A DNA stretch of 64,000 bases from positions 16,080 to 80,079 of the forward strand of contig DATNDO010000043.1 of assembly GCA_035606955.1 (NCBI GenBank), read 5' to 3'. Both the position numbers and the translations under genes were made by a program. The stretch's first letter is position 1. Each line of letters begins with the position of its first letter. Shown here one piece after another: positions 1 to 28,625 of this stretch. The DNA comes from Candidatus Angelobacter sp. GTDB lineage: Bacteria; Acidobacteriota; Terriglobia; Acidiferrales; UBA7541. The notes below the pieces were generated by a model. That model ran no database searches and was not told the origin of the DNA. It was given only the letters and a program-made list of their open reading frames with translations.

Positions 1-324
1 TCCTGCATCGGGCACATATTTTGGGTGCACGGAACCAAATGCGAGCAACCGCTTCGGATCGGCGGAACAGTATTTCGCGATCCAGTCATTCACTTCAGGC
101 GGAAAACCAATCACGTCTGGACTCACGTAATTAATCAAGCCCGCGCGTTCGATTCCAGCTTCATCCAGAAATTGCAGGAACAGCTTTGGATCTGCGGAAT
201 ATTTTTGCACTTCGGGGTAATCTTTGCGGCCTTTTTGAATCAACGCTAGAGCATGCGGCTTGAACATGTGCAAAGGCTGAATGTGAATATGAATGTCGAT
301 TACAGCGCCCGAATCGGATGGCAA
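1..324 (-). CDS. amidohydrolase-family metal-dependent hydrolase/decarboxylase (partial, runs off left edge)
   Basis: Not in the ORF track because no stop lies inside the window. The minus-strand frame reads TTG(324)-PSDSGAVIDIHIHIQPLHMFKPHALALIQKGRKDYPEV...KRLLAFGSVHPKYVPDAG and stays open to base 1. IDIHIH is the HxH metal motif of amidohydrolases. AAGGAGG lies 6 nt upstream of the TTG. Confidence 0.6.
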   Translation of the reverse strand, partial: MPSDSGAVIDIHIHIQPLHMFKPHALALIQKGRKDYPEVQKYSADPKLFLQFLDEAGIERAGLINYVSPDVIGFPPEVNDWIAKYCSADPKRLLAFGSVHPKYVPDAG

Positions 325-363
325 GCCATTCCTCCTTAAAATTTGGACCAACGGCGGCGCGGC

Positions 364-1365
364 CTATGCTTTCCCGTGGCCATTTCTCCAAGTGTCTTCG
401 AGCGCGCGTCGCGTAAACACGCGCACCATGTCACGACGATATACCGGCGTCGAACCGGAAGTCGTCAGCGGCTTGCCCGTCTGAATTGCGGCGTGCGCGA
501 CGCGCTCCGCGAGCTCCAGCGACCATTTCCGGCCAATGAGCGATTCGCTTGCTTGCATCACCAACATCGGAGCCGGATTCACAGCTGAGAGAGCGACGCG
601 CGCATCTTTGCAAATACCGGCAGAGTCGACCTCCATCGCTACGGCTACGCCAGCGAGCGGGTAGTCGATCGAGTCCCGCACGCGCAACTTGTGATACACG
701 CCGCAGCGGCCGGCCATACGCGCAGGCACGTGAACGGCGGTGACCAATTCGTTGCGCGCCAGGGCGATGCGATCCATGCCGTCATTCTTATAGAAATCGC
801 GCAGGGCAACACGCCGCGTTCCCGAACGACCGGCGATTTCCAGTTCTGCGTCGAGTGTCAAAAATGCGGGCGCGGAGTCGCCTGACCACGCGGCCCAGCA
901 AAAGTTTCCGCCAGGCGCGACGTGGCAGATGTCGCCGTCTTTTTTCAAGCAGCCACCAAGCGACTGACGCCAGAAATGCGATTGGTTGTACCAGCGACAG
1001 CGCGTTTCCAGGCACAGGTTGCCGCCGATCGTCCCCATGTTGCGCTGCAGCGGGCCCGCAACTGTGCCAATTGCGCTCGCAAGCACCGGAAATTTCTCGC
1101 GGAGCCATGGTGTATCGAGAATATTGGTCAGCGTGGCTGTCGAGCCAATGCGCAAGCCGTCGCGCGGTGAAAAATCTATCGTCGCCAATTCTCGCAGGAG
1201 TTTCACGTCCACTAACACACGCGGCGTAAAAAGCCGCATCTGCAAGTTGGGAATCACGTCGGTGCCGCCCGCAATCACCATCGCATCGGAGCCGTGTTGA
1301 TCCAGCATGTTGACCGCGTCGGCGACCGTGCGCGGCTGCAGAACGTGAAATGCAGGAAGCGTCAT
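364..1365 (-). CDS. FAD-binding medium subunit of a molybdenum hydroxylase (CoxM/HcrB-like) with an extra Cys cluster
   Basis: 333 aa. It has an AGGTD FAD-binding N-terminus. Its start overlaps the stop of the large subunit (ATGA). Insert with C123-x15-C139-x7-C147-x8-C156. Confidence 0.85.
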   Translation of the reverse strand: MTLPAFHVLQPRTVADAVNMLDQHGSDAMVIAGGTDVIPNLQMRLFTPRVLVDVKLLRELATIDFSPRDGLRIGSTATLTNILDTPWLREKFPVLASAIGTVAGPLQRNMGTIGGNLCLETRCRWYNQSHFWRQSLGGCLKKDGDICHVAPGGNFCWAAWSGDSAPAFLTLDAELEIAGRSGTRRVALRDFYKNDGMDRIALARNELVTAVHVPARMAGRCGVYHKLRVRDSIDYPLAGVAVAMEVDSAGICKDARVALSAVNPAPMLVMQASESLIGRKWSLELAERVAHAAIQTGKPLTTSGSTPVYRRDMVRVFTRRALEDTWRNGHGKA

Positions 1366-3716
1366 CGAGGGCTCCCGGCAAGCGATGCCTTCTTCGGAGC
1401 ATTTGATCCATTGCCACCCGCCGACTTCTGTTTTTCGCGCAATGCGTCCAGGATCTTATCCGGCGTGATAGGAATCGAGTTGATGCGTACGCCGACGGCG
1501 TCGAAAATCGCATTCGCAATCGCTGGTATCGTTGCCGCGAGCGAGCCTTCGCCGGCCTCTTTCGCGCCAAATGGGCCTTCCGGATCGATACTCTCGACTA
1601 TAATCGACTCAATCTCCGGATTCTCTTTCGTTGCGGGAATGCGATATTCGAGCAACGATGGATTCATCAGGCGGCCATCTTTCCAGATCATGTCTTCCTG
1701 CAGCGCCTGTCCAAACCCCATATAAACCGATCCCTCGATCTGCCCTTCGACTGTAAGGGGATTCAGCGCTTTGCCGCAGTCGTGCGCCGCGACAATTTTA
1801 TCGACGTGAACGTGGCCCGTTTCTGGATCGACGGTGACTTCCGCAACTTGCGCGCTGTAGCTGTACGCCGGTGAAGGACCCACGCCAGCGCCCTTGAATT
1901 TTCCGCCGCGCGCCGTTTCGGGAGGCGCGTAAGTGCCGCGAGCCGACAGCGCTCCGTGAAATTCGAGTGCGACGGCAACTGCTTCGTCGAACGAAAAACT
2001 CTTGCTCGCATCGCTCGTGTGCGACATGCGTCCATTTTTCGCTTCGAAATCTTCCGCCGCGCAGCCGAACTTCTTTGCTACCGCCGCGACAATTTGGTCG
2101 CGCATATCTTTCGCCGCATTCAGGCACGCGTTGCCGGCCATGAACGTTACGCGGCTCGAATAACTGCCAAGGTCAATCGGCGTAAGTTCCGTATCGGCCG
2201 CGATCAGCTTGATGCGATCCGCGGTGACGCCAAGAACCTCCGCGGCAATTTGTACCTGCATCGTGTCCGAACCCTGGCCGATCTCGGAAGCGCCCGTGTA
2301 AACGGTGACCGCCGCGTCGCGATCAATTTTGATGTGCACGGTCGTGTGCGGCATGTTCGAGCGAATGATAGGATTCGCCGCGCCGCTGACGTAATGGCTG
2401 CACGCCATACCCACGCCCTTGCCATAGGGCAGCTTGCCTTTCTTCTCCGCCCAACCCGAACGCTCAAAAACTTTCTCGACGCATTCCGGCAAGCCGTAGC
2501 TTGTGACGCGAAGCGAATTCGCCGTAATGCATGGTGCCTTCAGCAAATTTCGCCTGCGAACTTCGAGAGGATCAAGTCCGGCCTGATACGCTAACTGGTC
2601 AAGGATCGACTCGAACGCGAAACGAACGTTAACTGTGCCGTGGCCGCGCATTGCGCCACACGCAGGCTTATTCGTGAGCACGCGAAAACCGTCGTATTGC
2701 ACATTCGCGATATCGTAAATCGCTCCGAGCAGCGCGCCCGAATAGAGCACCGTCACCGGGCCATAGCCGCAGTACGCGCCGCCGTCTTGAATCACACGCG
2801 CTTGCACCGCGGTAATCTTCCCCGCGCGAGTCATCCCCACTTTCAAATAAACGATAGTGATTGGCCGGCCGCGATGCGCCAGGAACACTTCCTCGCGCGT
2901 ATACGTGATCTTCACGGGCTTGCGCGATTTTTTCGCAAGCACGCACGCGGCAACTTCAAGAGGAATAATTTCGCTCTTGCCGCCGAAGCCGCCGCCGATC
3001 AGCGGCTTGATTACTCGAATCTGGCTCATCGGCATTTCGCAAACTGCTGCGATGGTGCGATGGAGGTAGAACGGCACTTGCGTGGAGGAATGAACCGTCA
3101 GGCGCTCATCCGGTTCCCAAACCGCGAGCGTTGCGTGCGGCTCCATGGCAGCCTGATTGACTTCGCCAGCGTAATAACGCTCTTCCGCAACGAAATCCGC
3201 CTCGCCAAAACCTTTCACCGGATCACCGAATACGTGGTGATATTCCTTTTCGATATTTTGCGGCCGCTCTTCATTGATCCAGTTCGAGGCCGCTTTCATG
3301 GATTGTTCGGGATCGAACCACGCAGGCAATTGCTCGTAGTCGACGCGAATCAAATCGAGCGCCTGCTCGGCGATTTCCGGAGTTGCCGCTGCCACAGCAG
3401 CGATGTTGTCGCCGATGTAGAGAGCCTTGCCAAGCGCGAAAGCCCGCTCGTCGTGACCAATCGGCAAAATGCCATAAGGATTGCGCGCGTCTTCGCCAGT
3501 CGCCGTTACTTTGACGCCCGCGAGCGCTTCGGCTTGCGAAGTATCGATCGAACGGATGCGCGCATGTGCATGGGGTGAATGCAGGATTTTCCCGATCAGC
3601 ATTCCAGGAACGGAAAGATCGTCCGCATACTTGCCAAGGCCCGTGACTTTGGCGCGAGCATCCGTCATCGCCATAGGCTTGCCGATGATGCTGAAGCCGT
3701 TGGTATTTTTCGCCAT
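1362..3716 (-). CDS. molybdopterin-binding large subunit of xanthine-oxidase-family hydroxylase (HcrA/CoxL-like)
   Basis: 784 aa. The N-terminus is typical of the aldehyde oxidase/xanthine dehydrogenase a/b-hammerhead (IGKPMAMTDARAKVTGLGKYADDL). GGGFGGK motif. It sits between the 2Fe-2S and FAD subunits. Confidence 0.9.
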   Translation of the reverse strand: MAKNTNGFSIIGKPMAMTDARAKVTGLGKYADDLSVPGMLIGKILHSPHAHARIRSIDTSQAEALAGVKVTATGEDARNPYGILPIGHDERAFALGKALYIGDNIAAVAAATPEIAEQALDLIRVDYEQLPAWFDPEQSMKAASNWINEERPQNIEKEYHHVFGDPVKGFGEADFVAEERYYAGEVNQAAMEPHATLAVWEPDERLTVHSSTQVPFYLHRTIAAVCEMPMSQIRVIKPLIGGGFGGKSEIIPLEVAACVLAKKSRKPVKITYTREEVFLAHRGRPITIVYLKVGMTRAGKITAVQARVIQDGGAYCGYGPVTVLYSGALLGAIYDIANVQYDGFRVLTNKPACGAMRGHGTVNVRFAFESILDQLAYQAGLDPLEVRRRNLLKAPCITANSLRVTSYGLPECVEKVFERSGWAEKKGKLPYGKGVGMACSHYVSGAANPIIRSNMPHTTVHIKIDRDAAVTVYTGASEIGQGSDTMQVQIAAEVLGVTADRIKLIAADTELTPIDLGSYSSRVTFMAGNACLNAAKDMRDQIVAAVAKKFGCAAEDFEAKNGRMSHTSDASKSFSFDEAVAVALEFHGALSARGTYAPPETARGGKFKGAGVGPSPAYSYSAQVAEVTVDPETGHVHVDKIVAAHDCGKALNPLTVEGQIEGSVYMGFGQALQEDMIWKDGRLMNPSLLEYRIPATKENPEIESIIVESIDPEGPFGAKEAGEGSLAATIPAIANAIFDAVGVRINSIPITPDKILDALREKQKSAGGNGSNAPKKASLAGSPR

Positions 3717-3718
3717 GG

Positions 3719-4225
3719 TCAGTGGGTCGCCGGAACATGCGCCGCGGACTTCGTTCGCAGCTTTTCAATCGCGTATTTCACGGACTCGTAGATTTGCATG
3801 TAGCCGGTGCAGCGGCAGAGATTGCCGGAGAGCGCTTCGCGAATCTCGTCCATGGAAGGCTCTGGATTGCGGTCGAGCAGGGCCTTTGTGGCAATCATGA
3901 ACCCTGGCGTGCAATAGCCGCATTGCGCGCCGCCCATTTCCGCATAGCCTTCCTGCACGGGATCAAGTTCACCTGGGCCGCCGAGTCCCTCGACCGTCGT
4001 GATTTCGCGCCCTTCGTAGCTGGCTGCGAGCGCGACGCAGGAAAGCATTGGCGTTCCGTCGATGAGCACCGCGCAGCAGCCGCAACTCGAATCGTCGCAG
4101 CCCCGCTTCGAACCAGTGAGGCCAAGATCTTCACGTAGCGCATCCAGTACGAGCCGATTCGGCGCGATGGCGATTTCGCGCTCTTCGCCATTGACGCGCA
4201 AGCGCATGAGTTCTTTGTTCACCAC
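3719..4225 (-). CDS. [2Fe-2S]-binding small subunit of molybdenum hydroxylase (HcrC/CoxS-like)
   Basis: 168 aa. It carries both 2Fe-2S cysteine motifs (GCDDSSCGCC and CGYCTPG...CRCTGY). GTG start next to AGGAG. Confidence 0.9.
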   Translation of the reverse strand: MVNKELMRLRVNGEEREIAIAPNRLVLDALREDLGLTGSKRGCDDSSCGCCAVLIDGTPMLSCVALAASYEGREITTVEGLGGPGELDPVQEGYAEMGGAQCGYCTPGFMIATKALLDRNPEPSMDEIREALSGNLCRCTGYMQIYESVKYAIEKLRTKSAAHVPATH

Positions 4226-4230
4226 GTCTC

Positions 4231-4581
4231 CTAGGCGAGCTTCTTCAGCGCTTCTTCGTCGTACCCCAGCACGATTTGTTTCCCGGAAATTACCACGGGC
4301 CTGCGAATCAGATTCGGCTCCGCAGCCATCATTTTCAAAGCGTCCGCGCGCGAGGGCGGATTTTCCTTCATATTCCGCTGACGATACAGCTCATTTCGCG
4401 TGTTCAAGAACAATCGGTAATCCCGTTCGCCGATTAGCTTGTCCAGTTCCGCGACCGTCAAACGATCTTGAGCCAGATCCCTTAGTTCCAGTTCAACCCC
4501 GCGTTCGAGCAAGAGACCTCTTGCTTTGCGGCAGGAGGTTCATGTCGGCTTGTGCCAGAATTTAATTTTTGTTTTCGCCAT
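4231..4581 (-). CDS. Spx/ArsC-family redox protein, candidate selenoprotein (TGA 4540-4542 read as Sec, UxxC motif)
   Basis: The ORF track shows only 4231..4512 (93 aa), which lacks the family N-terminus. The same frame upstream reads ATG(4581) MAKTKIKFWHKPT-TGA-TSCRKARGLLERGVELE. The total of 116 codons is typical for this family. The C-terminal LIRRPVVISGKQIVLGYDEE is the family signature. Confidence 0.7.
4499..4542 (-). promoter_or_regulatory. candidate bacterial SECIS hairpin following the in-frame UGA
   Basis: The mRNA reads UGA-ACCUCCUG-CCGC-AAA-GCAAGA-GGUC-UCUUGC-UCGAAC-GCGG. A perfect 6-bp upper stem with a GGUC loop starts 15 nt after the UGA. A possible 4-bp lower helix is CCGC/GCGG. 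Confidence 0.5.
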
Positions 4582-4594
4582 TCTTGTTCGCCTT

Positions 4595-4933
4595 TCAGTA
4601 ACGCGGCACGCGCGGATCGATTTCCTGCGACCATCGGTCAATCCCGCCCGCCATCGAGCGCGCTCCGGAAACTCCTTGGGAACGCAACCACGCCGCGGCA
4701 TCGAGACTACGCCGGCCGCTATGACAGAAAAGTATGACGGTATCCGCTGCTTCGAATTCGGCCAGGCTTGCGGGGATCTGCCCCAGCGGAATCAGTTTTG
4801 AACCTTCGATATGGCAGAGCTGGTATTCCCACGACTCACGCACGTCGACAAAAAACAATTTCTCGCCCCGGTCGAGCTGTTGTTTCACTTCGGTGGGCGC
4901 AATCTCCAGATTCGCGAACAAGTCTTCAGGCAT
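4595..4933 (-). CDS. single-domain rhodanese sulfurtransferase
   Basis: Active-site loop CHSGRRS. ATG at 4933 is preceded by GGTGGAG with a 5-nt spacer; the track's longer ORF starts at TTG 4948. The stop lies 13 nt before the ATG of the Spx/ArsC-like gene. Confidence 0.85.
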   Translation of the reverse strand: MPEDLFANLEIAPTEVKQQLDRGEKLFFVDVRESWEYQLCHIEGSKLIPLGQIPASLAEFEAADTVILFCHSGRRSLDAAAWLRSQGVSGARSMAGGIDRWSQEIDPRVPRY

Positions 4934-4987
4934 TTTTCTCCACCGCAATTCTCCATCGTGCGTCCTGCTCTGACAGCGCGATACCTA

Positions 4988-5791
4988 TCATCTTCCCTGC
5001 CAGACGGGAGTACGTTTTTCAAGGAACGCGCGAATGCCTTCCTGCGCATCCTCGGTATGGATCAGGTCCCGCAAGTAAACTTCCTCGACGGTTTCCAGGC
5101 TCCGCTCAAAATCGAATCCCGCCGTTTTCCACAATGTACGCCGCGCCATTCCCAAAACGGCAGGACTGAGCGCGCCGAGCTCTTCGAGCAAGGCTGCAAC
5201 AGTGTTCTCCAACTCTCCGTCCGCAACCACCCGTGAAATAAGTCCAAGGCGTTGCGCTTCGCGCGCGGAAATCGTTCGGCCGCTCAATATCAGATCCACG
5301 GCCGCGCGCATCCCGACCAGCTTCGGAAACGTGACCATCGCCATGGGCGGAAAGCAGCCGAGCTTGATTTCGGGCTGGCCGAATTTCGCCGATTCTGTTG
5401 CGACGACGAAATCGCAGAACGTCGCCAGTTCGCAGCCGCCTCCCAGGCAGCACCCGTGCACGGCGGCAATAGTGATAAACCGGCTGTTCCATATTTCGCG
5501 GAAGATTCCGTGAAAGGCGTGGAGCATATCCTCGACGCGCTCTGGCGCATGATCTGAGACTTCCGCGCCCGCCGAAAAACCCTTTTCTCCTGCTCCCTGA
5601 AAAACCAGAACATCCATTTCTGGGCCCAGTTCTTCAATCACTGCGTTGATCTCGCGCATCATCGCGATATTCATCACGTTCAAAGGCGGACGCTCGAGCA
5701 CGATCCGCGCAATGCGGCCTTCGGTGCGTACGCGAACGCTTTCCAGGGCTAGCATGTCAATCGTTTTAAAATGCGCGGGACTACTCCCCAC
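4988..5791 (-). CDS. enoyl-CoA hydratase/isomerase (crotonase) family protein
   Basis: 267 aa. Crotonase fold motifs are present (FSAGAEV, GCCLGGGCELA). GTG start with GGAG upstream, 1 nt after the BoxB-like stop. Confidence 0.85.
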   Translation of the reverse strand: MGSSPAHFKTIDMLALESVRVRTEGRIARIVLERPPLNVMNIAMMREINAVIEELGPEMDVLVFQGAGEKGFSAGAEVSDHAPERVEDMLHAFHGIFREIWNSRFITIAAVHGCCLGGGCELATFCDFVVATESAKFGQPEIKLGCFPPMAMVTFPKLVGMRAAVDLILSGRTISAREAQRLGLISRVVADGELENTVAALLEELGALSPAVLGMARRTLWKTAGFDFERSLETVEEVYLRDLIHTEDAQEGIRAFLEKRTPVWQGR

Positions 5792-5792
5792 A

Positions 5793-6911
5793 TTACTCCA
5801 TCGAGCCCTTCGGCGCGATCCACTTCGGCTCCGTGCTCTGAATGTCGCTGATGAGCTTCAAGTCTTCTTCCTGCGGAAATACTTCTTTCATGTGCTCCGC
5901 ATATTTCGCAGGTGACAGCAATTCACCCGAGACGCTGTACGGTTGATTCGCAAATTCGCCGATATGGCGATTGAACTTTGGATCAGGAACGTAAAGCGGA
6001 GTCTTACCTGCAGGGACGTGCTTGTTGATTTGCTCGATCAATTTCAAGCACTCCGCGTAATAAAGATTGCGATTATGCTCGTTCATGTGGCCTAGGTCGG
6101 CGGCTTGCTGATTCTGTGCTTCGTCGTAACGTCCCTTGAGGCCCCAAACATAAAACCAGTGCGCCGAACTCGACTGATCGACGCCGAAAAGATCGTTGCT
6201 CACGGGAATCCATTTGTTGACGTATTTCTGCACTACAGTTAGAGGAACCACGCCGGCCTTCACGATGCGCTTGATCCCATCGTGGCCCGTGCCCAGGTGA
6301 AAAGATTCCTCGCGCAACATGGGAATCATCGACTGCGCCAGCGGCGCGAAGCCTGAGTAGCTCAGCATCGTGAGCTGGAATTTTCCGTCGCGGTCCACGA
6401 AATCAGTGTATGTGAAGAAGTCGAGCCAGTTACGCACGTCCTGGTTAAACGCGCCCAGCAGGCGCTTCTGCTCGAACGCGCGCCGCTCCAGCATTTTTTG
6501 CGCTTCCACGCGCCCGCCATAGCCGAAATGCGAAATCAGCAGCGTGCACATTTGCCAGCCGTGGCGCATTTCTTCGGTCACCACGCGGCAGAGTGATTTG
6601 CGGTCGTGCTCGCTCGGGCATGCCTCAAAAAGATGGCGCTGTTGCTCAACCGATGCGAACTCCGTGTCTCCCTGATAAATGATCAGATTCATCAGGCCGT
6701 CGCGTATCCGCTGGTCTGGAATTTCGAGGACTTTCTGCCACTTTGAACGGCCCTTGAACGCGCCGAATTCGATTTCGTTCGAGCGGATCGGGCCGAATTT
6801 CGCTTCGAATTTATAATTCTCAATTTCGGCATAGTTCACGCCAATTTCTTTGCGCCAGGAGCCGAATAAATCCACCCAGTCGTCAAAAGTTGCGATTCGT
6901 GTTGCAGGCAT
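5793..6911 (-). CDS. BoxB-like diiron acyl-CoA oxygenase (benzoyl-CoA 2,3-epoxidase B-subunit family)
   Basis: 372 aa. The stretch QGDTEFASVEQQRHL...EEMRH...DRDGKFQL...REESFHLG resembles BoxB as I remember it. Two ExxH diiron motifs. Strong GGAGGAG upstream of the ATG. Confidence 0.7.
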   Translation of the reverse strand: MPATRIATFDDWVDLFGSWRKEIGVNYAEIENYKFEAKFGPIRSNEIEFGAFKGRSKWQKVLEIPDQRIRDGLMNLIIYQGDTEFASVEQQRHLFEACPSEHDRKSLCRVVTEEMRHGWQMCTLLISHFGYGGRVEAQKMLERRAFEQKRLLGAFNQDVRNWLDFFTYTDFVDRDGKFQLTMLSYSGFAPLAQSMIPMLREESFHLGTGHDGIKRIVKAGVVPLTVVQKYVNKWIPVSNDLFGVDQSSSAHWFYVWGLKGRYDEAQNQQAADLGHMNEHNRNLYYAECLKLIEQINKHVPAGKTPLYVPDPKFNRHIGEFANQPYSVSGELLSPAKYAEHMKEVFPQEEDLKLISDIQSTEPKWIAPKGSME

Positions 6912-6974
6912 TGCTCCATCTCCTCCCGGGATCGTCCGGTCACCAGAGCTTATTTAAGATAAAAACTTGTTCCT

Positions 6975-7790
6975 TCAGCTCCCGCGAAACTGCGGCTCGC
7001 GCTTCGCGAAGAACGCATCGAGTCCTTCTGCACAGTCAGCCGAAAGGAAGCATTCCACTTGCTGCTCGATTTCCGCGTCGAGCGCGCGCTCCAACTCCTC
7101 GCGTTCAGCACCAATTAAAACCTGCTTGATCGCGCGAATCGCCATCGGAGGGCCGGCAGCCAATTGCGCGGCAAACTTTTTTGCTTCCTCCGCGAACTTT
7201 TCCTCCGGCACAACCCGATTCACGATTCCCAGCCGCTCCGCCTCAGCCGCGGAAATCATTTCCGCCGTGTAAAACAACTCCGCAGCCTTGGCCACGCCGA
7301 CAATCCTCGGCAGAAAATACGTCCCGCCGAAATCCGGGAACAGGCCCACTCGCGTGAAAGTCTCGCCAAAGGTCGCTTGATCGGACGCGATGCGAAGATC
7401 GCACGCCAGAGCCAGATTCATCCCAGCGCCTGCCGCTGGGCCATTCACCGCGGCGATCACCGGTTTCGGCATGGTGCAAATGGCCATTGCGATCTCTTTC
7501 CCCGCGCGCAATAGGCCTTCGAGTTCATGGCCGGCATTGCGCGAACGCGCGTCGCGAAGCACGGCCAGATCTCCTCCGGCGCAGAAACCGCGACCCGCGC
7601 CTGTCAAAATAATCACTCGTGTCGACCTGTCGGCAGCCGCGCGATTAAGTCCATCAACAAGCGCGCGACCCAACTCGACATTCAGCGCATTCAAACGCTC
7701 GGGACGGTTCAGGCGCAGACTCAACACGGCACCGTCGCGCTCCTCGAGAACCAGCGCTTCCGCCACCGATTTGTGCGTTGCACTCGACAT
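6975..7790 (-). CDS. enoyl-CoA hydratase/isomerase family protein
   Basis: Crotonase motifs (FCAGGDL, NGPAAGAGMNLALACD). I place the start at internal ATG 7790 (MSSATHKS...) because the longer track ORF would overlap the upstream mug gene by about 150 nt. Confidence 0.85.
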   Translation of the reverse strand: MSSATHKSVAEALVLEERDGAVLSLRLNRPERLNALNVELGRALVDGLNRAAADRSTRVIILTGAGRGFCAGGDLAVLRDARSRNAGHELEGLLRAGKEIAMAICTMPKPVIAAVNGPAAGAGMNLALACDLRIASDQATFGETFTRVGLFPDFGGTYFLPRIVGVAKAAELFYTAEMISAAEAERLGIVNRVVPEEKFAEEAKKFAAQLAAGPPMAIRAIKQVLIGAEREELERALDAEIEQQVECFLSADCAEGLDAFFAKREPQFRGS

Positions 7791-7801
7791 TACAGGCTGC
7801 C

Positions 7802-8311
7802 TCAAGTGCCCATCCGTTTCAGAACCGCGGCCAGCTTCCTGAAATAGCGCATCTTCACGCCTCGGCCCTTCGCATTCAGCGCGCTGGTGGAAGGCAGCAC
7901 GAAAACATCCGCGCCGTAGAGCTTTTCTTTCTGCAATCCAAGCATGCAAGGGCGGCCGGCAAATTTCTCGTAAACCATCTTGCCGTTGAACGCGACCAGA
8001 CGCGGGCGGAACTCTTCGAGCTTTTGCGCGAGTAGCACGCGGCCTTCCGAAAATTCCTCGCGTTCGATGTCGTCGATTCCCTTCGACGGCCGCTTGACCA
8101 GATCGGTAAGTCCTATGCCAAATTCCAGCACGCGGCGATCATCGGCATAGGCAATCGGCTCGGGAATCACGCCCGATTCATAGAGCAACGGCCAAAATTC
8201 GTTGCCGCGCCCCGCGTAATAGTGGCCCACGCGCGCTGAGCGTTCGCCGGGATTACATCCCACGACAATGAGCTTCATTCCTCGCCGGAGATAATCAGGC
8301 AGCGTGCGCAT
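7802..8311 (-). CDS. mug: G/U mismatch-specific uracil-DNA glycosylase (family 2 UDG)
   Basis: 169 aa. The GCNPG motif corresponds to GINPG of E. coli Mug. NEFW and LPSTSALN motifs also match. Family length is correct. Confidence 0.8.
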   Translation of the reverse strand: MRTLPDYLRRGMKLIVVGCNPGERSARVGHYYAGRGNEFWPLLYESGVIPEPIAYADDRRVLEFGIGLTDLVKRPSKGIDDIEREEFSEGRVLLAQKLEEFRPRLVAFNGKMVYEKFAGRPCMLGLQKEKLYGADVFVLPSTSALNAKGRGVKMRYFRKLAAVLKRMGT

Positions 8312-8338
8312 CGCTTCGAGCCAACTCCATCGTCACAT

Positions 8339-9811
8339 TTAATCTTTCAGATTCACCCAAACGCTCTTCACTTGCGTGTAGCTCTCGAGCGCGTGCATGC
8401 TCAATTCGCGCCCGTAACCGCTCATCTTGTAGCCGCCAAAGGCCGCGGCGGGATCGTAATTGTTGTACGTGTTGATCCACACGGTTCCAGCTTGCAGCCG
8501 GTGCGCGACGCGGTGCGCCTTGGCAATATCGCGCGTCCAAACGGCAGCTGCAAGGCCGTACGGGTTCTTATTTGCTTCGCGGATAGCTTCTTCCACGTCG
8601 TCGAACGCGATCGTCGCAAGCACAGGACCGAAGATTTCCTCGCGCGCAATGGTCATATCGTTCTTCACGTCATCGAACACGGTCGGCTGAACGAAATAGC
8701 CTTTGCCGTTGCCGAATTGCGCACGCGCTCCCCCGGCGACGAGTTTCGCTCCTTCGGTTTTTCCCTTCTCAATATAGCCGAGCACTTTATTCATCTGCGA
8801 TTCACTAACCAGTGCGCCGAATTTCGTTTTAGGATCGAGCGGGTCACCGGGTTGGACTTTCTTTGTGCGGTCAACCAGTTTCTGCATAAAATCATCGTGA
8901 ATCTTGCGCTCCACGAAGAGCCGCGAGCCTGCCGCACATACTTCGCCTTTGCCGTAGAAGATGCCGATTGTCGCGCCGCGCACTGCGCCGTCCAAATCAG
9001 CGTCGGCCAGAACAATATTCGGAGATTTTCCTCCAAGCTCGAGAGTGACGTGCTTCAGGCTGTCCGCGGAAACACGAGCAATCTCCTGCCCGGTCATAGT
9101 CGAGCCGGTGAATGCAATTTTCGACACGCCCGGGTGGCGCACCAGCGCGCGGCCGAGTTCGTCCGAAGCGCCTGTGACGATGTTCAAAGCGCCGTCCGGC
9201 AAGCCGGCTTCCTGGCAAATCTCGCCGAGCCGCAGCGCTGTGAGCGACGTCCACGGCGCGGGCTTCAGCACGACAGTATTGCCGGCAGCCAGCGCGGGCG
9301 CCACTTTCCACGACGCAAGGAGCAGGGGAAAATTCCACGGGACGATTGCCGCAACCACACCGATAGGTTCACGCAGCGTGTAATGCAGAAACGGTCCGCG
9401 AACAGGAACCGTTTCACCGTGAATCTTTGTGGCCCAGCCAGCGTAGTAGCGGAAAACTTCCGCCACCATCGGCATGTCCACCTGGCACGATTCAAAGATG
9501 GGCTTGCCATTGTCGAGCGTTTCGAGGGTCCCGAGTTCTTCGTTGTATTTGTCGACAAGATCGCCGATTTTCCAGAGTATGCGGCCGCGGTCCGAAGCGC
9601 TCATCTCCGCCCACGAGCCTGACTCGAACGCGCCCCGCGCCGCCTCGACTGCGAGATCAGCATCGGGGGCGTCTGCGTCGGCAATCTGCGTCAGTGTTTC
9701 GCCCGTGGCAGGGTTAATCGTCGAATACGTCTTGCCCGACGCGGCATTTTGCCATTTGCCGCCAATGAATAACTTCCCGGGCTTCGCCTCAATTTTGGCC
9801 GCGGTCGCCAT
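8339..9811 (-). CDS. NAD(P)-dependent aldehyde dehydrogenase
   Basis: 490 aa. ELGGKSP and GEVCAAGSR catalytic motifs. Confidence 0.9.
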   Translation of the reverse strand: MATAAKIEAKPGKLFIGGKWQNAASGKTYSTINPATGETLTQIADADAPDADLAVEAARGAFESGSWAEMSASDRGRILWKIGDLVDKYNEELGTLETLDNGKPIFESCQVDMPMVAEVFRYYAGWATKIHGETVPVRGPFLHYTLREPIGVVAAIVPWNFPLLLASWKVAPALAAGNTVVLKPAPWTSLTALRLGEICQEAGLPDGALNIVTGASDELGRALVRHPGVSKIAFTGSTMTGQEIARVSADSLKHVTLELGGKSPNIVLADADLDGAVRGATIGIFYGKGEVCAAGSRLFVERKIHDDFMQKLVDRTKKVQPGDPLDPKTKFGALVSESQMNKVLGYIEKGKTEGAKLVAGGARAQFGNGKGYFVQPTVFDDVKNDMTIAREEIFGPVLATIAFDDVEEAIREANKNPYGLAAAVWTRDIAKAHRVAHRLQAGTVWINTYNNYDPAAAFGGYKMSGYGRELSMHALESYTQVKSVWVNLKD

Positions 9812-9817
9812 GCTCTG

Positions 9818-10627
9818 CTACCTTCCTTTGAATTCCGGTTGGCGCTTCTCCACGTACGCTTTCAGCCCTTCCTTCGCATCATCGCTTGTGAAGAGCAATT
9901 GCTGCAATTCGCGCTCGATACCAAGAGCCTCGCCAAAGCCAACTTCCAATCCGGTCACCACGGCGCGCTTGATACGGCCCACGGCACGCGATGCCTTGTT
10001 CGGAGGGCAGAATTGCCGCGCGTAGGCCATTACTTCTTCCCAGAACGATTCCCGCTCGTAAATATACTGAATCAGCCCCATCTCGGCGGCTTCTTCGAAG
10101 CTGAATGTGCGCCCCGTCGCCATTAATTCAATCGCTCGCGACTTGCCCACCGCGCGCGCAAGACGTTGCGTGCCTCCCGTGCCGGGAAGAACGCCCAGGT
10201 TCACTTCGGGCAGGCCAATTTTGCCGCCTTCCTTTTTCGCCAGTCGGATATCGCAAGCCAGCGCAATTTCAAGACCGCCTCCCACCGTGTGCCCGTTCAG
10301 CGCCGCAATCACGAGTTTGGGAGTCTGCTCCAAGCGGGAAAGCGTTTCGTTGGCATGCAGGCAGAAATAATATTTGAACTGCGGGTCGACTTTGGCGAGC
10401 ATGGGGATGCTCGCTCCCGCCGAAAAGAACTTTTCACCCGCGCCACGAAGCAAAAGGACATGGACGCTGTCGTCCATGCGCGCCTGCAAAATTGATTCAT
10501 CGAGCTGGCGCATCATCTCGTACGTGTACGTGTTCGCCGGCGCATCATCCATTTCGATTATGGCGATGCCGTCTTCCACGCGATAATTCACCAACTGTTT
10601 CTGATCCACTGCTTGCGTCGTAGCCAT
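9818..10627 (-). CDS. enoyl-CoA hydratase/isomerase family protein
   Basis: 269 aa. Crotonase motifs (FSAGASI, NGHTVGGGLEIALACD). Confidence 0.85.
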   Translation of the reverse strand: MATTQAVDQKQLVNYRVEDGIAIIEMDDAPANTYTYEMMRQLDESILQARMDDSVHVLLLRGAGEKFFSAGASIPMLAKVDPQFKYYFCLHANETLSRLEQTPKLVIAALNGHTVGGGLEIALACDIRLAKKEGGKIGLPEVNLGVLPGTGGTQRLARAVGKSRAIELMATGRTFSFEEAAEMGLIQYIYERESFWEEVMAYARQFCPPNKASRAVGRIKRAVVTGLEVGFGEALGIERELQQLLFTSDDAKEGLKAYVEKRQPEFKGR

Positions 10628-10663
10628 TGAAAAACTCCTCTCTCTTGTGAATATCGATTTCGT

Positions 10664-11338
10664 CTAACCCGCGGCGCGTGCCGCCACTTTCAAGGTGCTA
10701 CGTGCAGCGCGCGATGTTTTCTGTGAGTCAACCGGGTGGCCATTCATTACGCCGTGCAGGAACATTTGCGACATCACATCTGAAAGCGCTTCGGCTTGGG
10801 GATCCACCTGTGGACGATGCCATGTGTGAATCCAGTTCATCATACCGAACAACGACAAAACAGCGATGCGAGGATTTAGCTGCCGTGCCTGACCCGCGCG
10901 CCGCAATTCCTCGAAAATCTCGAGCGCCGTGCCGTAATAGCGGCGCTTGATCTCCGCAACTTCCCTGCGATACTCCCCCGCAAGCACATCATCCTCGCGC
11001 GCAAGCACCTTCATTTCCATGGGATGGCGCAGAAAGTATTCCAGATGATTGTGGACCAAAATGCGCAGGCGGGCAGCGGGATCGGACACAGATTCCAGGT
11101 TGCGGCGAAGCTGCGACAGAATCGTGTTAAATGTATGGATTTGAATCAGATAGAGGAGCTTCTGCTTGCTTTCGACATAGTAATACAAGCCCGACAAGGA
11201 AACGCCGCTCGCGCGACTGATGTCGCGAATGGAGGCGCCTTCGTAGCCCTTTTCGGCGAAAACGCGTGCGGAATGCCGGAGAATCATCTCCAACTTCCGG
11301 GAAGCGGTTTGCGAATCCGGTGTCGCAGTACGAGGCAT
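10664..11338 (-). CDS. TetR/AcrR-family transcriptional regulator
   Basis: The HTH region reads ILRHSARVFAEKGYEGASIRDISRASGVSLSGLYYYVESK. I place the start at internal ATG 11338. It is the first gene of the minus-strand catabolic cluster. Confidence 0.8.
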   Translation of the reverse strand: MPRTATPDSQTASRKLEMILRHSARVFAEKGYEGASIRDISRASGVSLSGLYYYVESKQKLLYLIQIHTFNTILSQLRRNLESVSDPAARLRILVHNHLEYFLRHPMEMKVLAREDDVLAGEYRREVAEIKRRYYGTALEIFEELRRAGQARQLNPRIAVLSLFGMMNWIHTWHRPQVDPQAEALSDVMSQMFLHGVMNGHPVDSQKTSRAARSTLKVAARAAG

Positions 11339-11572
11339 TCGTCGGCAATCCTGAGTCGAACGTTCGTTCGAATAACGAGCATAGTTCCCCGAACGACAGG
11401 AGTCAAGCCGCACTGCGGTGGCGAATTCGAGCGCATACAGACTTTGCCAGACACGAGAATCTTGCATCTTCAAATCGTCTGCTGCGTCAGATAAGAGTGC
11501 GTGCTGACGCGAGAACATGGCGACTATTTGTGTTACGCTTTGCCATCACCTGACGCGGGGCACCGACGGATC

Positions 11573-12205
11573 ATGGAACCAGCAAAAGCAAACACCAAAT
11601 TAGCAAATTCGGAAGCAACTCCTGTCGATAACGAATCTGCCCTGGTCGCGGCGGCTAAGGCGGGAGACGTCGATGCATTTGAGGCACTCGTCAACCGTTA
11701 CGAACGGAAAATCTTTCGCCTCACCCAGCACATTACTCAAAACACCGAAGACGCGCAGGACGCATCGCAAGAAGCGTTCTTGAAGGCATTTGAGCACCTC
11801 GGGGAATTCCAGGGCAATTCGCGGTTTTACACTTGGCTGGTGCGCATCGCCGTAAATCAGGCGCTGATGAAACTGCGCAAACGGCACACGAAAGATATTT
11901 CGCTCGACCAGGACATCGAAACCGAAGACAACTTTATGCCCCGAGAAATCGAGGACTGGGGTCCTTCGCCCGAGCAACGTTACGCGCAGGACGAGCTCGC
12001 TGGAATACTCTCCCACGTGATCGGTGAACTCGAGCCGTCTTTCCGCACCGTATTCCAACTCCGCGACATCGAAGAACTTTCCACGGAAGAGACCGCGGAA
12101 GCCCTTGGCCTGTCCGTGCCTGCTGTGAAATCTCGACTGCTGCGCGCGCGCCTGAAGCTGCGAGAAAAATTGAATCGGTATTTTCGAAGAGGTATACCCC
12201 AATGA
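11573..12205 (+). CDS. ECF (sigma-70 family group 4) RNA polymerase sigma factor
   Basis: Region 2 (FEALVNRYERKIFRLTQHITQNTEDAQDASQEAFLKAF) and region 4 (LSTEETAEALGLSVPAVKSRLLRAR) are both present. ATG at 11573 chosen. Confidence 0.85.
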   Translation: MEPAKANTKLANSEATPVDNESALVAAAKAGDVDAFEALVNRYERKIFRLTQHITQNTEDAQDASQEAFLKAFEHLGEFQGNSRFYTWLVRIAVNQALMKLRKRHTKDISLDQDIETEDNFMPREIEDWGPSPEQRYAQDELAGILSHVIGELEPSFRTVFQLRDIEELSTEETAEALGLSVPAVKSRLLRARLKLREKLNRYFRRGIPQ

Positions 12206-12441: not shown

Positions 12442-12454
12442 CTGCTGTGCACCG

Positions 12455-27765: not shown

Positions 27766-27779
27766 TACCTAACAGGGCT

Positions 27780-27810
27780 CGCAGGGGCTGAGACAAACTC
27801 AGCCCTTGCG
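27780..27810. terminator. bidirectional hairpin between convergent genes
   Basis: CGCAGGGGCUGAG-acaaa-CUCAGCCCUUGCG forms a 13-bp stem with one G-U or mismatch position. It lies between the peroxiredoxin stop and the end of the oxidase operon. No strong U-tract. Confidence 0.45.
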
Positions 27811-28610: not shown

Positions 28611-28625
28611 CGCTCGATATGCTCC

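What the first reader, a model, noticed from the sequence alone, without database searches (positions are those of the whole stretch)
4988..11338. BoxB-like oxygenase cluster without recognisable BoxA or BoxC
The 372-aa protein at 5793-6911 shares long motif strings with benzoyl-CoA 2,3-epoxidase BoxB as I remember it. These are QGDTExASVEQQRHL, two ExxH diiron motifs (EEMRH, EESFH) and DRDGKFQL. It is about 100 aa shorter than the ~470-aa Azoarcus enzyme.

Three ordinary-size crotonases (267, 271 and 269 aa), one aldehyde dehydrogenase and a TetR regulator surround it.

The window contains no BoxA-type Fe-S flavoprotein reductase, no ~550-aa BoxC ring-opening dihydrolase and no aryl-CoA ligase. 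The cluster runs on into the Hcr-like Mo enzyme and an amidohydrolase-type (possible decarboxylase) gene at the left edge.

This could be a variant aerobic acyl-CoA dearomatisation route with a different electron donor and different ring-opening hydrolase. It could also act on a non-benzoate substrate.
Basis: partly seen in the sequence, partly recalled or inferred. Interest (0 to 1): 0.65.

Follow-up and report, generated by a model that had tools for sequence, protein, structure and literature searches.

The report
Compact BoxB-like oxygenase operon, Acidobacteria
A soil acidobacterium carries a shortened relative of the benzoate-ring-opening enzyme BoxB in a repressor-controlled operon that lacks BoxB's usual partner genes; the same arrangement is found in hundreds of acidobacterial species, has never been studied, and is routinely mislabelled as ordinary BoxB.

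Summary
Window 5793-6911 (minus strand) encodes a 372-aa diiron protein whose closest solved relative is BoxB (E 2e-55; model TM 0.90). It keeps all six BoxB iron ligands and five of seven pocket residues.

It is not a BoxB orthologue. It scores 237 bits against a cut-off of 499, lacks four BoxB segments and forms its own clade.

BoxA, a full-length BoxC, an aryl-CoA ligase and PaaB-E are absent from the window, from the parent contig to the left, and from ±10 kb in about 90 related loci.

The gene sits in one long minus-strand operon: TetR, hydratase-type crotonase, aldehyde dehydrogenase, Mug-type glycosylase, PaaG-like isomerase, diiron protein, crotonase, rhodanese, ArsC-like protein, then a true 4-hydroxybenzoyl-CoA-reductase-type Mo enzyme. 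The parent contig adds an amidohydrolase and a 3-hydroxyacyl-CoA dehydrogenase.

The family occurs in at least 590 species representatives; the 80 closest are nearly all labelled Acidobacteriota. TetR, the first crotonase and the diiron gene are nearly always linked; the Mo enzyme follows in two thirds of loci. A conserved operator matches the Thermus PaaR consensus.

Most likely this is an aryl-CoA epoxidase of a Box/Paa-like hybrid pathway with an electron donor encoded elsewhere. Substrate and donor are unproven. I rate it a new variant of a known kind.

The parts
5793..6911 (-). 372-aa diiron carboxylate oxygenase, a compact sister clade of BoxB
   Evidence: PF05138. TIGR03225 BoxB 236.8 bits, below the 499.1 cut-off; PaaA model 34.6 bits. 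PDB BoxB 3PER E 2.3e-55. AF2 model pLDDT 90.9. Foldseek to BoxB TMq 0.90, to PaaA about 0.55. Ligands E84, E114, H117, D173, E202 and H205 are invariant in 85 family members.
6975..7790 (-). 271-aa crotonase ECH_b, a PaaG-like epoxide/enoyl-CoA isomerase type
   Evidence: TIGR02280 PaaG 231 bits (cut-off 345); oxepin-CoA hydrolase alternative type 222 bits (cut-off 300). Among the best six PDB hits are T. thermophilus entries 3HRX/6SLA and E. coli PaaG 4FZW_C; I identify the Thermus entries as PaaG from memory. 41% identical to E. coli PaaG. It shares the Asp of PDxGGT and lacks both hydratase Glu residues.
9818..10627 (-). 269-aa crotonase ECH_a, hydratase/hydrolase type, the near-universal partner of the diiron gene
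   Evidence: PF00378. Both catalytic Glu residues present. Upstream of the diiron gene in 65 of 70 species loci at 64-89% identity. It is the only locus protein hit by BoxC (33-40% over BoxC residues 53-152). Best PDB hit 2PPY, E 4e-72.
4988..5791 (-). Crotonase ECH_c (255 aa from the ATG at 5755, or 267 aa from the GTG at 5791), hydratase type
   Evidence: PF00378. Second-best NCBIfam hit is cyclohexa-1,5-dienecarbonyl-CoA hydratase, 165 bits (cut-off 292). Both Glu residues present. Downstream of the diiron gene in 44 of 62 loci.
8339..9811 (-). 490-aa NAD(P)-dependent aldehyde dehydrogenase
   Evidence: PF00171, 610 bits. Nearest models are betaine-aldehyde and phenylacetaldehyde (StyD) dehydrogenases; no BoxD- or PaaZ-type model is among the 25 listed. 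Present in 25 of 70 loci.
7802..8311 (-). 169-aa Mug/UDG-family DNA glycosylase gene embedded in the operon (probably a passenger)
   Evidence: PF03167. Mug models below cut-off. Found here only in the Acidiferrales-type loci, 16 of 70.
10664..11338 (-). 224-aa TetR repressor (TetR_N + TetR_C_24), first gene of the operon, PaaR-like by its operator
   Evidence: Pfam. Gene call in L001. Present in 61 of 70 loci. Best PDB relatives are TetR entries 5K7F and 3VPR; I recall these as the acyl-CoA-responsive AibR and PfmR.
11356..11371 (.). Palindromic operator TCGAACGttCGTTCGA
   Evidence: Found. It fits the T. thermophilus PaaR consensus CNAACGNNCGTTNG (PMC6651687). 36 of 64 species loci have an exact match within 300 bp upstream of TetR. 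Only 37 matches exist in 1.46 Mb of loci. It is also present before TetR in the distant locus L089.
11378..11406 (-). Sigma-70-like promoter candidate TTGACT-17-TATGCT upstream of TetR
   Evidence: The only promoter-like match in window 1-12500. The operator starts 7 nt downstream of the -10 hexamer. This is a consensus match only.
4595..4933 (-). 112-aa single-domain rhodanese
   Evidence: PF00581. Best NCBIfam match is the C-terminal rhodanese domain of MoeZ/MoeB. Present in 36 of 62 loci.
4231..4512 (-). 93-aa ArsC/Spx-family thioredoxin-fold protein
   Evidence: PF03960; arsC_related model below cut-off. Present in 10 of 62 loci.
3719..4225 (-). 2x[2Fe-2S] subunit of the Mo enzyme (HcrC-like)
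   Evidence: PF01799 and PF00111. TIGR03193 191 bits (cut-off 258).
1362..3716 (-). 784-aa molybdopterin subunit, 4-hydroxybenzoyl-CoA reductase alpha type (HcrA-like)
   Evidence: TIGR03194 1013 bits, above the 994.55 cut-off. PDB 1RM6_A 781.6 bits, against 291 bits or less for any other Mo enzyme. Linked in 41 of 62 loci.
364..1365 (-). 333-aa FAD subunit with the HcrB-specific Cys-rich loop (HcrB-like)
   Evidence: 1RM6_B E 9e-67, full-length alignment. All five Cys of the loop CxxxxC...C...C...C align with HcrB. TIGR03195 312 bits (cut-off 404.55).
1..324 (-). 5' part of a 288-aa Amidohydro_2 gene cut by the window edge; a 3-hydroxyacyl-CoA dehydrogenase follows on the parent contig
   Evidence: L001 gene calls. 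Best PDB hit is the uncharacterised BB4693, 3IRS. The dehydrogenase scores 418 bits on PRK09260 (cut-off 429).

Best explanation
The 372-aa protein is a catalytically competent diiron monooxygenase that acts on an aromatic acyl-CoA thioester. It belongs to a compact sister clade of benzoyl-CoA 2,3-epoxidase BoxB.

It is the oxygen-dependent step of a TetR-repressed operon for a Box/Paa-like 'hybrid' ring-cleavage pathway. The proposed steps are:
1. An aryl-CoA is epoxidised. The favoured candidate is benzoyl-CoA, which the co-encoded 4-hydroxybenzoyl-CoA-reductase-type Mo enzyme would make from 4-hydroxybenzoyl-CoA. A close analogue such as phenylacetyl-CoA is the alternative.
2. The epoxide is handled by the PaaG-like isomerase ECH_b.
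3. A hydratase-type crotonase opens the ring hydrolytically. ECH_a is the conserved partner; ECH_c is the other candidate.
4. The resulting aldehyde is oxidised by the aldehyde dehydrogenase.
5. The chain is shortened by crotonase and 3-hydroxyacyl-CoA dehydrogenase steps.

The two electrons per turnover come from a donor that is not encoded next to the gene. The TetR is a PaaR-type repressor, presumably released by the aryl-CoA substrate.

Shown: homology, fold, conserved metal site and pocket, gene linkage, the operator, and the absence of BoxA, BoxC and a ligase.

Inferred: the reaction, the substrate, the order of steps and the donor.
For: Diiron protein:
- BoxB is the nearest relative by HMM, PDB sequence search and fold.
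- All six BoxB ligands and second-shell residues Q116, T119, S123, F193 and F203 are invariant in 85 family members. The residue list comes from PMC5489048.

Neighbours:
- ECH_b is PaaG-like in sequence and in its catalytic residues.
- ECH_a and ECH_c keep both hydratase Glu residues.
- ECH_a is the only BoxC-similar protein in the loci.
- The Mo enzyme passes the 4-HBCR alpha cut-off, scores 781 bits against Thauera HcrA, and keeps the HcrB Cys loop.

Linkage across species:
- ECH_a 93%, TetR 87%, ECH_c 71%, Hcr trio 67%, always on the same strand.
- About a quarter of loci add a two-subunit CoA-transferase (24 and 21 of 83 loci for its two subunits). This offers a ligase-free activation route.

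Regulation: the operator matches the consensus of the phenylacetyl-CoA-responsive PaaR and lies just after the promoter-like site.

Other context:
- The window encodes an aa3-type cytochrome c oxidase, so O2 use is plausible.
- A 41%-identical homologue in a Burkholderiales contig sits among lignin-type aromatic catabolic genes: a LigXa-like Rieske oxygenase, a cupin and tautomerases.
- Soil metatranscriptome contigs 88-95% alike cover the operon.
Against: - No reductase or ferredoxin gene lies within ±10 kb in about 90 loci. The oxygenase cycle therefore lacks a demonstrated donor.
- No ligase or thiolase is in the window.
- Three pocket positions are fixed differently from BoxB: P121F, F206Y and T210V. 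Substrate or chemistry may therefore differ.
- Homologues at 45-56% identity in other phyla stand alone, or with only the TetR gene, without crotonases. Some acidobacterial loci lack the aldehyde dehydrogenase and the Mo enzyme.
- Thauera 4-HBCR is an oxygen-sensitive, ferredoxin-dependent anaerobic enzyme (established knowledge). Pairing it with an O2-dependent step is unusual.
- The aldehyde dehydrogenase resembles free-aldehyde dehydrogenases, not BoxD or PaaZ.
- The RNA evidence comes from assembled contigs of related strains, and DNA carry-over cannot be excluded.
Confidence: 0.55

Rival explanations
1. Same enzyme class, but the physiological substrate is phenylacetyl-CoA or a substituted aryl-acetyl- or aryl-propionyl-CoA. 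The operon would then be a slimmed-down Paa-type pathway in which one BoxB-like subunit replaces PaaABCDE.
For: The operator equals the PaaR consensus, and TetR comes first in the operon as in the Thermus paaR-paaA operon. ECH_b is PaaG-like. The aldehyde dehydrogenase scores 589 bits on a phenylacetaldehyde dehydrogenase model, and the 3-hydroxyacyl-CoA dehydrogenase is PaaH-related.
Against: The protein scores 237 bits on BoxB but only 35 bits on PaaA. The BoxB benzoyl-pocket residues are conserved. The linked Mo enzyme is of the type that makes benzoyl-CoA. ECH_b occurs in only 15 of 70 loci.
Confidence: 0.15
2. The diiron protein is not a ring epoxidase. It would be a hydroxylase, desaturase or detoxifying/deoxygenating enzyme acting on some other acyl-CoA, with a conserved role of its own. 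The aromatic-looking neighbours in Acidobacteria would be secondary additions.
For: It occurs alone with only the TetR gene and the same operator in another phylum (L089). It is solo in L093 and L094 and sits next to MutY in a Thermoanaerobaculia locus. In Terriglobia the locus lies in a housekeeping syntenic region (carAB, dapA, lpxB). The Thr-to-Val change at BoxB position 210 and the Phe-to-Tyr change at 206 are fixed. The closest solved TetR relatives include regulators I recall as responding to aliphatic acyl-CoAs.
Against: Residues that hold the benzoyl ring and thioester in BoxB are invariant. There is strong linkage to crotonases and a 4-HBCR-type enzyme, and an aromatic-catabolic context in Burkholderiales.
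Confidence: 0.2
3. This is an ordinary box cluster whose boxA, boxC and ligase genes lie just outside the window, or the gene is a truncated or decaying boxB.
For: Automated pipelines name these proteins benzoyl-CoA 2,3-epoxidase subunit B.
Against: The parent contig shows no box genes to the left. There are no BoxA or ligase hits in the window or in about 90 loci. The 372-391 aa length and the indel pattern are conserved across thousands of sequences at 60-96% identity, so this is not decay.
Confidence: 0.03
4. It is a non-catalytic structural subunit, like PaaC.
For: It belongs to the same Pfam family as PaaC.
Against: All six metal ligands are invariant. No catalytic partner of the family is nearby.
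Confidence: 0.02

Closest known systems
Benzoyl-CoA 2,3-epoxidase BoxB (Aromatoleum/Azoarcus evansii; PDB 3PER, 3PM5; TIGR03225)
   Same: Same fold (TM 0.90 over the query). About 35-40% identity in the core. Identical six-residue diiron site. Conserved Q116, T119, S123, F193 and F203, which position benzoyl-CoA in BoxB.
   Different: About 100 residues shorter through four conserved deletions (two N-terminal, two internal) plus a shortened C-terminal end. It scores less than half the family cut-off and forms a separate clade. Fixed substitutions P121F, F206Y and T210V. No BoxA reductase, no 556-aa BoxC, no BoxD-type dehydrogenase and no ligase nearby. Regulated by a TetR; box clusters use an XRE-type BoxR (PMC10803450).
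Phenylacetyl-CoA 1,2-epoxidase PaaABCDE with PaaG, and the TetR repressor PaaR (E. coli, Thermus thermophilus)
   Same: Same superfamily (PF05138). A PaaG-like isomerase is adjacent. TetR-first operon organisation. The operator fits the PaaR consensus CNAACGNNCGTTNG. Aldehyde dehydrogenase and 3-hydroxyacyl-CoA dehydrogenase steps are present.
   Different: PaaA model only 35 bits; fold TM about 0.55. PaaB, PaaC, PaaD, PaaE, PaaK, PaaJ and PaaZ are all absent from the locus.
4-hydroxybenzoyl-CoA reductase HcrABC/HbaBCD (Thauera aromatica; PDB 1RM6)
   Same: The alpha subunit is above the equivalog cut-off and scores 781 bits against HcrA. The beta subunit keeps the extra Cys loop that binds the [4Fe-4S] cluster. 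The gamma subunit is of the two-[2Fe-2S] type.
   Different: It is encoded in an operon with an O2-dependent diiron enzyme, in a genome segment that also carries a cytochrome c oxidase, rather than with benzoyl-CoA reductase genes of anaerobes. The beta and gamma subunits fall below their model cut-offs.
SSO1313-type small PaaA/BoxB-like proteins (PDB 4MUD)
   Same: A distant member of the same diiron family (E 1.4e-13).
   Different: Only 235 aa; uncharacterised; fold TM 0.52 over the query.

Membership tests
BoxB, benzoyl-CoA 2,3-epoxidase subunit B (TIGR03225 equivalog) | Whole-protein score at or above the curated cut-off (499.1 bits) | tested here: not met
   236.8 bits. True BoxB representatives score 672 and 908 bits; other short-form relatives score 237 bits or less.
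BoxB, benzoyl-CoA 2,3-epoxidase subunit B (TIGR03225 equivalog) | Diiron ligands Glu120, Glu150, His153, Asp211, Glu240 and His243 | tested here: met
   They align to E84, E114, H117, D173, E202 and H205 and are invariant in 85 family members. Ligand list from PMC5489048.
BoxB, benzoyl-CoA 2,3-epoxidase subunit B (TIGR03225 equivalog) | Benzoyl-CoA pocket residues Gln116, Thr119, Ser123, Phe193, Phe203, Phe206 and Thr210 | tested here: inconclusive
   Five of seven are invariant. F206 is Tyr in 85 of 85 sequences and T210 is Val or Ile in 85 of 85.
BoxB, benzoyl-CoA 2,3-epoxidase subunit B (TIGR03225 equivalog) | Full-length architecture of about 470 aa | tested here: not met
   372 aa. Four BoxB segments and the C-terminal tail are absent in all short-form sequences. 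Target-normalised TM is only 0.72.
BoxB, benzoyl-CoA 2,3-epoxidase subunit B (TIGR03225 equivalog) | Works with the BoxA reductase and the BoxC dihydrolase, which are encoded alongside it | tested here: not met
   No BoxA hits in the window or in about 90 loci. BoxC hits cover only 100 residues of a 269-aa crotonase. A reference cluster (L091) shows ligase, boxC, boxB and boxA together.
BoxB, benzoyl-CoA 2,3-epoxidase subunit B (TIGR03225 equivalog) | Catalyses 2,3-epoxidation of benzoyl-CoA | not testable with these tools
   Needs an enzyme assay.
PaaA, phenylacetyl-CoA epoxidase catalytic subunit (TIGR02156) | Score at or above the 280-bit cut-off, and PaaB/C/D/E partners present | tested here: not met
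   34.6 bits. PaaB, PaaC, PaaD and PaaE have no tblastn hits.
4-hydroxybenzoyl-CoA reductase (HcrABC) | Alpha subunit at or above the TIGR03194 cut-off (994.55 bits) | tested here: met
   1013 bits; 781.6 bits against 1RM6_A.
4-hydroxybenzoyl-CoA reductase (HcrABC) | Beta subunit carries the extra Cys-rich insertion that binds a [4Fe-4S] cluster | tested here: met
   The loop aligns with HcrB without gaps and every Cys is conserved. The role of the loop is from established knowledge of the 1RM6 structure.
4-hydroxybenzoyl-CoA reductase (HcrABC) | Beta and gamma subunits at or above their model cut-offs | tested here: not met
   Beta 312 bits against 404.55; gamma 191 bits against 257.8.
PaaR-type TetR repressor | Binds the pseudopalindrome CNAACGNNCGTTNG at its own promoter | tested here: met
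   The sequence is present at 11356-11371, just after the -10 hexamer. It is conserved upstream of TetR in 36 of 64 loci, with only 37 matches in 1.46 Mb. Binding itself was not tested.
PaaR-type TetR repressor | Protein orthology to PaaR and an aryl-CoA effector | not tested
   No PaaR sequence or model was available. The nearest solved structures are other TetRs.
PaaG, 1,2-epoxyphenylacetyl-CoA isomerase (TIGR02280) | Score at or above the 345-bit cut-off | tested here: not met
   ECH_b scores 231 bits.
PaaG, 1,2-epoxyphenylacetyl-CoA isomerase (TIGR02280) | Isomerase-type active site: Asp in PDxGGT, both hydratase Glu residues absent | tested here: met
   Alignment with E. coli PaaG, 41% identity.

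The most novel reading that the evidence does not exclude
The compact BoxB-like enzyme works without a dedicated reductase because it is wired to the Hcr-type Mo/Fe-S/FAD enzyme encoded in the same operon, or to a general ferredoxin. Electron flow at the Mo enzyme would then be coupled directly to O2 activation at the diiron site. This would be a new, self-contained dearomatisation module. It would be the main aerobic route for hydroxybenzoate-type lignin monomers in Terriglobia, one of the most abundant soil lineages.
Probability: 0.1. Interest if true: 0.8.

Novelty: new variant of a known kind. Interest (0 to 1): 0.55.

Why it matters
**Annotation.** Acidobacteriota are among the most abundant soil bacteria, yet their aromatic catabolism is known almost only from annotation. 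This protein family has thousands of sequences and occurs in at least 590 species representatives. It is automatically named BoxB, and metagenomic surveys therefore count it as evidence for the box pathway, although BoxA and BoxC are missing.

**Enzymology.** If the family proves to be an aryl-CoA epoxidase with a different donor and crotonase-type ring opening, it would define a third version of the hybrid CoA-dependent aerobic pathway, next to Box and Paa. It would also link a 4-hydroxybenzoyl-CoA reductase, regarded as an anaerobic enzyme, to an oxygenase.

**If the function is different.** A large block of metagenome annotation would then need correcting.

**Testability.** The conserved operator and the TetR give an easy experimental handle for finding the true substrate.

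Tried and rejected
- **Box genes beyond the left edge.** I fetched the parent contig; none are there.
- **BoxA, BoxC, ligase and PaaB-E in the window and all loci.** tblastn found none, except a partial BoxC-crotonase similarity.
- **A conserved reductase or ferredoxin near the gene.** I clustered all ORFs of 100 aa or more from 83 loci. Only the Hcr subunits carry redox cofactors. ORFs under 100 aa were not clustered, but the window has no room for one.
- **Rest of the window.** Cytochrome oxidase, glycolysis genes, an ABC transporter and a hydroxyproline cluster. Nothing is related.
- **Literature.** Five searches for BoxB or 4-HBCR in Acidobacteria and for box-pathway surveys found no study of this family.
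- **A cultured carrier.** The top 120 hits of two protein searches are all metagenomic.
- **Expression.** Only low-depth metatranscriptome contigs of related strains were found. This is suggestive, not decisive.
- **Terminator scan.** 31 weak matches against about 18 expected; none is convincing inside the operon.
- **One look-up failed.** The ORF start I gave was not the called one.

Full report
**1. What is in the sequence**

All genes from the left edge to 11338 lie on the minus strand, with gaps of 0-64 bp or small overlaps. In the direction of transcription they are:

| Coordinates | Product |
|---|---|
| 11338-10664 | TetR regulator |
| 10627-9818 | Crotonase ECH_a |
| 9811-8339 | Aldehyde dehydrogenase |
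| 8311-7802 | Mug/UDG-family glycosylase |
| 7790-6975 | Crotonase ECH_b |
| 6911-5793 | 372-aa diiron protein |
| 5791 or 5755-4988 | Crotonase ECH_c |
| 4933-4595 | Rhodanese |
| 4512-4231 | ArsC/Spx-like protein |
| 4225-364 | Three subunits of a molybdenum hydroxylase-family enzyme |
| about 324-1 | Start of an Amidohydro_2 gene |

It overlooked the glycosylase, rhodanese and ArsC-like genes.

A divergent ECF sigma factor gene starts at 11501.

**2. The diiron protein**

- Pfam places it in PaaA_PaaC.
- NCBIfam gives BoxB (TIGR03225) at E 4.5e-70, but 236.8 bits against a cut-off of 499.1. PaaA scores only 34.6 bits.
- The best solved structure is BoxB (3PER, E 2.3e-55). Next is the uncharacterised SSO1313 protein, then PaaA.
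- An AlphaFold2 model (pLDDT 90.9) superposes on BoxB with TM 0.90 normalised to the query and 0.72 normalised to BoxB. For PaaA the value is about 0.55.

Alignment with genuine BoxB proteins, which score 672 and 908 bits on the same model, explains the missing 100 residues. They correspond to four discrete BoxB segments plus the C-terminal tail, absent in every short-form sequence.

The BoxB ligands Glu120, Glu150, His153, Asp211, Glu240 and His243 are listed in PMC5489048, as are the residues that orient benzoyl-CoA. I checked them in 85 family members:
- All six ligands are invariant.
- Gln116, Thr119, Ser123, Phe193 and Phe203 are invariant.
- Three positions are fixed differently: Pro121 to Phe, Phe206 to Tyr, Thr210 to Val.

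In a neighbour-joining tree the short forms make a clade separate from BoxB, and both are far from PaaA and PaaC (no bootstrap support was computed).

Conclusion: this is a catalytically intact sister family of BoxB, not a BoxB orthologue and not a decayed copy.

**3. How widespread it is**

- A search of 5.8 billion proteins returned 4990 hits. The best 120 are 74-96% identical and 356-390 aa long, nearly all 371-375 aa. Pipelines label them 'benzoyl-CoA 2,3-epoxidase subunit B' or 'Phenylacetic acid catabolic protein'.
The 80 best are nearly all labelled Acidobacteriota. The window itself is 99% identical to a 'Candidatus Acidiferrales' MAG.
- Terriglobales carry a 391-aa version.
- Full-length short forms at 32-56% identity occur in other, mostly unnamed lineages.

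**4. What is absent**

I took a reference box cluster from a Mycetohabitans plasmid, with ligase, boxC, boxB and boxA.
- BoxA and the benzoate-CoA ligase gave no tblastn hit (E <= 1e-3) in the window or in any of about 90 fetched loci.
- BoxC matched only residues 53-152 against ECH_a.
- E. coli PaaB, PaaC, PaaD and PaaE gave no hits.
- The parent contig continues to the left with Amidohydro_2, a 3-hydroxyacyl-CoA dehydrogenase, a Macro-domain protein, an M1 peptidase and LpxB.
- The rest of the window encodes cytochrome c oxidase, gap-pgk-tpi-secG, an ABC transporter and a hydroxyproline cluster.

The 'standard box cluster just out of view' explanation is therefore refuted.

**5. Conserved neighbourhood**

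I ran tblastn with the window proteins against the species loci.

| Position | Gene | Loci with the gene |
|---|---|---|
| Upstream | ECH_a | 65 of 70 (64-89% identity) |
| Upstream | TetR | 61 of 70 |
| Upstream | Aldehyde dehydrogenase | 25 of 70 |
| Upstream | Glycosylase | 16 of 70 |
| Upstream | ECH_b | 15 of 70 |
| Downstream | ECH_c | 44 of 62 |
| Downstream | Mo-enzyme trio | 41-42 of 62 |
| Downstream | Rhodanese | 36 of 62 |
| Downstream | Amidohydro_2 | 33 of 62 |

All are on the same strand as the diiron gene. The glycosylase and ECH_b occur only in the Acidiferrales-type loci.

About a quarter of loci insert a two-subunit family-I CoA-transferase around ECH_c (24 and 21 of 83 loci for its two subunits). 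It is a distant relative of PcaIJ/ScoAB and offers activation without a ligase.

Clustering of all ORFs of 100 aa or more found no conserved reductase or ferredoxin gene.

Outside Acidobacteriota the picture differs:
- A 56%-identical homologue has only the TetR gene beside it.
- Homologues at 45% and 51% identity stand alone.
- A Thermoanaerobaculia locus (60% identity, within Acidobacteriota) has MutY next to it.
- A 41%-identical Burkholderiales homologue lies among aromatic-catabolic genes: a LigXa-like Rieske oxygenase, a cupin and tautomerases.

**6. The partners**

*ECH_b.* Its best PDB hits include T. thermophilus entries 3HRX/6SLA, which I identify as PaaG from memory, and E. coli PaaG. 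It is 41% identical to E. coli PaaG. It shares the Asp in PDxGGT and lacks both hydratase glutamates.

*ECH_a and ECH_c.* Both keep the two glutamates. The second-best model for ECH_c is cyclohexa-1,5-dienecarbonyl-CoA hydratase, below its cut-off.

*Mo enzyme.*
- The large subunit passes the 4-hydroxybenzoyl-CoA reductase alpha cut-off (1013 against 994.55 bits).
- It scores 781.6 bits against Thauera HcrA, compared with 291 bits or less for any other Mo enzyme.
- The FAD subunit aligns end to end with HcrB and keeps every cysteine of the loop. In the 1RM6 structure that loop binds the extra [4Fe-4S] cluster.

This is a genuine Hcr-type enzyme acting on an aryl-CoA.

*Rhodanese.* It resembles the MoeZ/MoeB sulfur-transfer domain. 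That would fit molybdenum-cofactor maturation.

**7. Regulation**

The only sigma-70-like match in 12.5 kb is TTGACT-17-TATGCT at 11406-11378, upstream of TetR (a consensus match only).

Seven bases further on lies the palindrome TCGAACGttCGTTCGA, at 11356-11371. Its core CGAACGnnCGTTCG fits every specified position of CNAACGNNCGTTNG. That is the consensus reported for the phenylacetyl-CoA-responsive TetR repressor PaaR of Thermus thermophilus, whose operon also begins with the repressor gene followed by the diiron oxygenase gene (PMC6651687).

The motif is highly specific:
- It occurs within 300 bp upstream of TetR in 36 of 64 species loci.
- Only 37 matches exist in the whole 1.46 Mb of loci.
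- It also precedes the TetR gene of the distant solo locus L089.

The TetR-operator-diiron unit is therefore old and conserved. The regulator is of a type known to sense an aryl-CoA. I did not test protein-level orthology to PaaR.

**8. Expression**

Assembled contigs from soil metatranscriptomes, 88-95% alike, cover the diiron gene, the crotonases, the aldehyde dehydrogenase and the Mo enzyme. Two contigs bridge the junction between the diiron gene and ECH_b. This fits co-transcription in relatives. It is weak evidence because depth is low, the sequences come from related strains, and DNA carry-over is possible.

**9. Interpretation**

The best-supported reading (confidence about 0.55) is an aryl-CoA epoxidase at the centre of a PaaR-type-regulated, Box/Paa-like hybrid pathway:
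1. Epoxidation by the diiron protein.
2. Isomerisation by ECH_b, where present.
3. Hydrolytic ring opening by a hydratase-type crotonase. ECH_a is the conserved partner and the only BoxC-like protein in the locus.
4. Aldehyde oxidation.
5. Beta-oxidation-like steps.

The Hcr-type enzyme, linked in two thirds of species, points to benzoyl-CoA made from 4-hydroxybenzoyl-CoA as the substrate. The PaaR-type operator, the PaaG-like isomerase and the StyD-like dehydrogenase keep phenylacetyl-CoA-type substrates in play.

Unexplained points:
- The electron donor.
- The fixed Tyr and Val substitutions in the pocket.
- The pairing of an enzyme known as oxygen-sensitive with an oxygenase.
- The solo occurrences in other phyla.

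These sustain a rival in which the enzyme does different chemistry or acts on a different acyl-CoA (about 0.2).

**10. Novelty**

I found no publication on this family. It is a new variant of a known kind. It is not categorically new, but it is widespread, systematically mis-annotated, and directly testable through the enzyme and its repressor.

Noticed in passing
window 7802-8311 (minus strand); L049 11129-12226: A Mug/UDG-family DNA glycosylase gene sits inside the catabolic operon in Acidiferrales-type loci. In a Thermoanaerobaculia locus the diiron gene is followed directly by a MutY-type glycosylase. Two unrelated base-excision enzymes next to the same oxygenase may be coincidence, or may hint at a link to oxidative or epoxide DNA damage.
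   Followed up: partly
window 11356-11371; L089 9224-9239: The TetR operator palindrome TCGAACGnnCGTTCGA is conserved from Acidobacteriota to an unrelated lineage in which the diiron gene has only the TetR gene as neighbour. It matches the Thermus PaaR consensus.
   Followed up: yes
L011 3523-4344; L073 12797-13741; L038 11387-12040 and 12877-13785: About a quarter of related loci carry a divergent two-subunit family-I CoA-transferase split around crotonase ECH_c. It is far below the PcaIJ/ScoAB cut-offs and its substrate is unknown.
   Followed up: partly
window 4595-4933 and 4231-4512 (minus strand): A MoeZ-like single-domain rhodanese and an ArsC/Spx-like thioredoxin-fold protein lie between the crotonase and the Mo enzyme. 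The rhodanese stays linked to the diiron gene even in loci that lack the Mo enzyme (L003).
   Followed up: partly
window about 54800-63900: A hydroxyproline-type catabolic cluster: two proline racemase/epimerase-family genes, a DAO-family oxidase with a small Fer2_4 protein and a Pyr_redox_2 subunit, a DHDPS-family gene, an aldehyde dehydrogenase and an SSF transporter.
   Followed up: no
window about 27600-37300: An aa3-type cytochrome c oxidase operon (COX2, COX1, two COX3, COX4) lies next to secG-tpi-pgk-gap. This indicates an aerobic lifestyle.
   Followed up: no
window 11501-12205 (plus strand) and downstream: An ECF sigma factor gene with a zf-HC2 anti-sigma gene is divergently oriented from the TetR promoter. 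The pair keeps this position in many Acidiferrales loci.
   Followed up: no
window 48660-52776 (plus strand): A large 870-aa He_PIG-repeat protein is followed by a gene for a BNR-repeat protein of about 480-500 aa. Function unknown.
   Followed up: no
L089 8268-9071 and 6917-8305; L093 1832-2449 and 2703-3986: In two distant lineages the solo diiron gene keeps the same neighbours: a class-I methyltransferase and an MgtE magnesium transporter.
   Followed up: no
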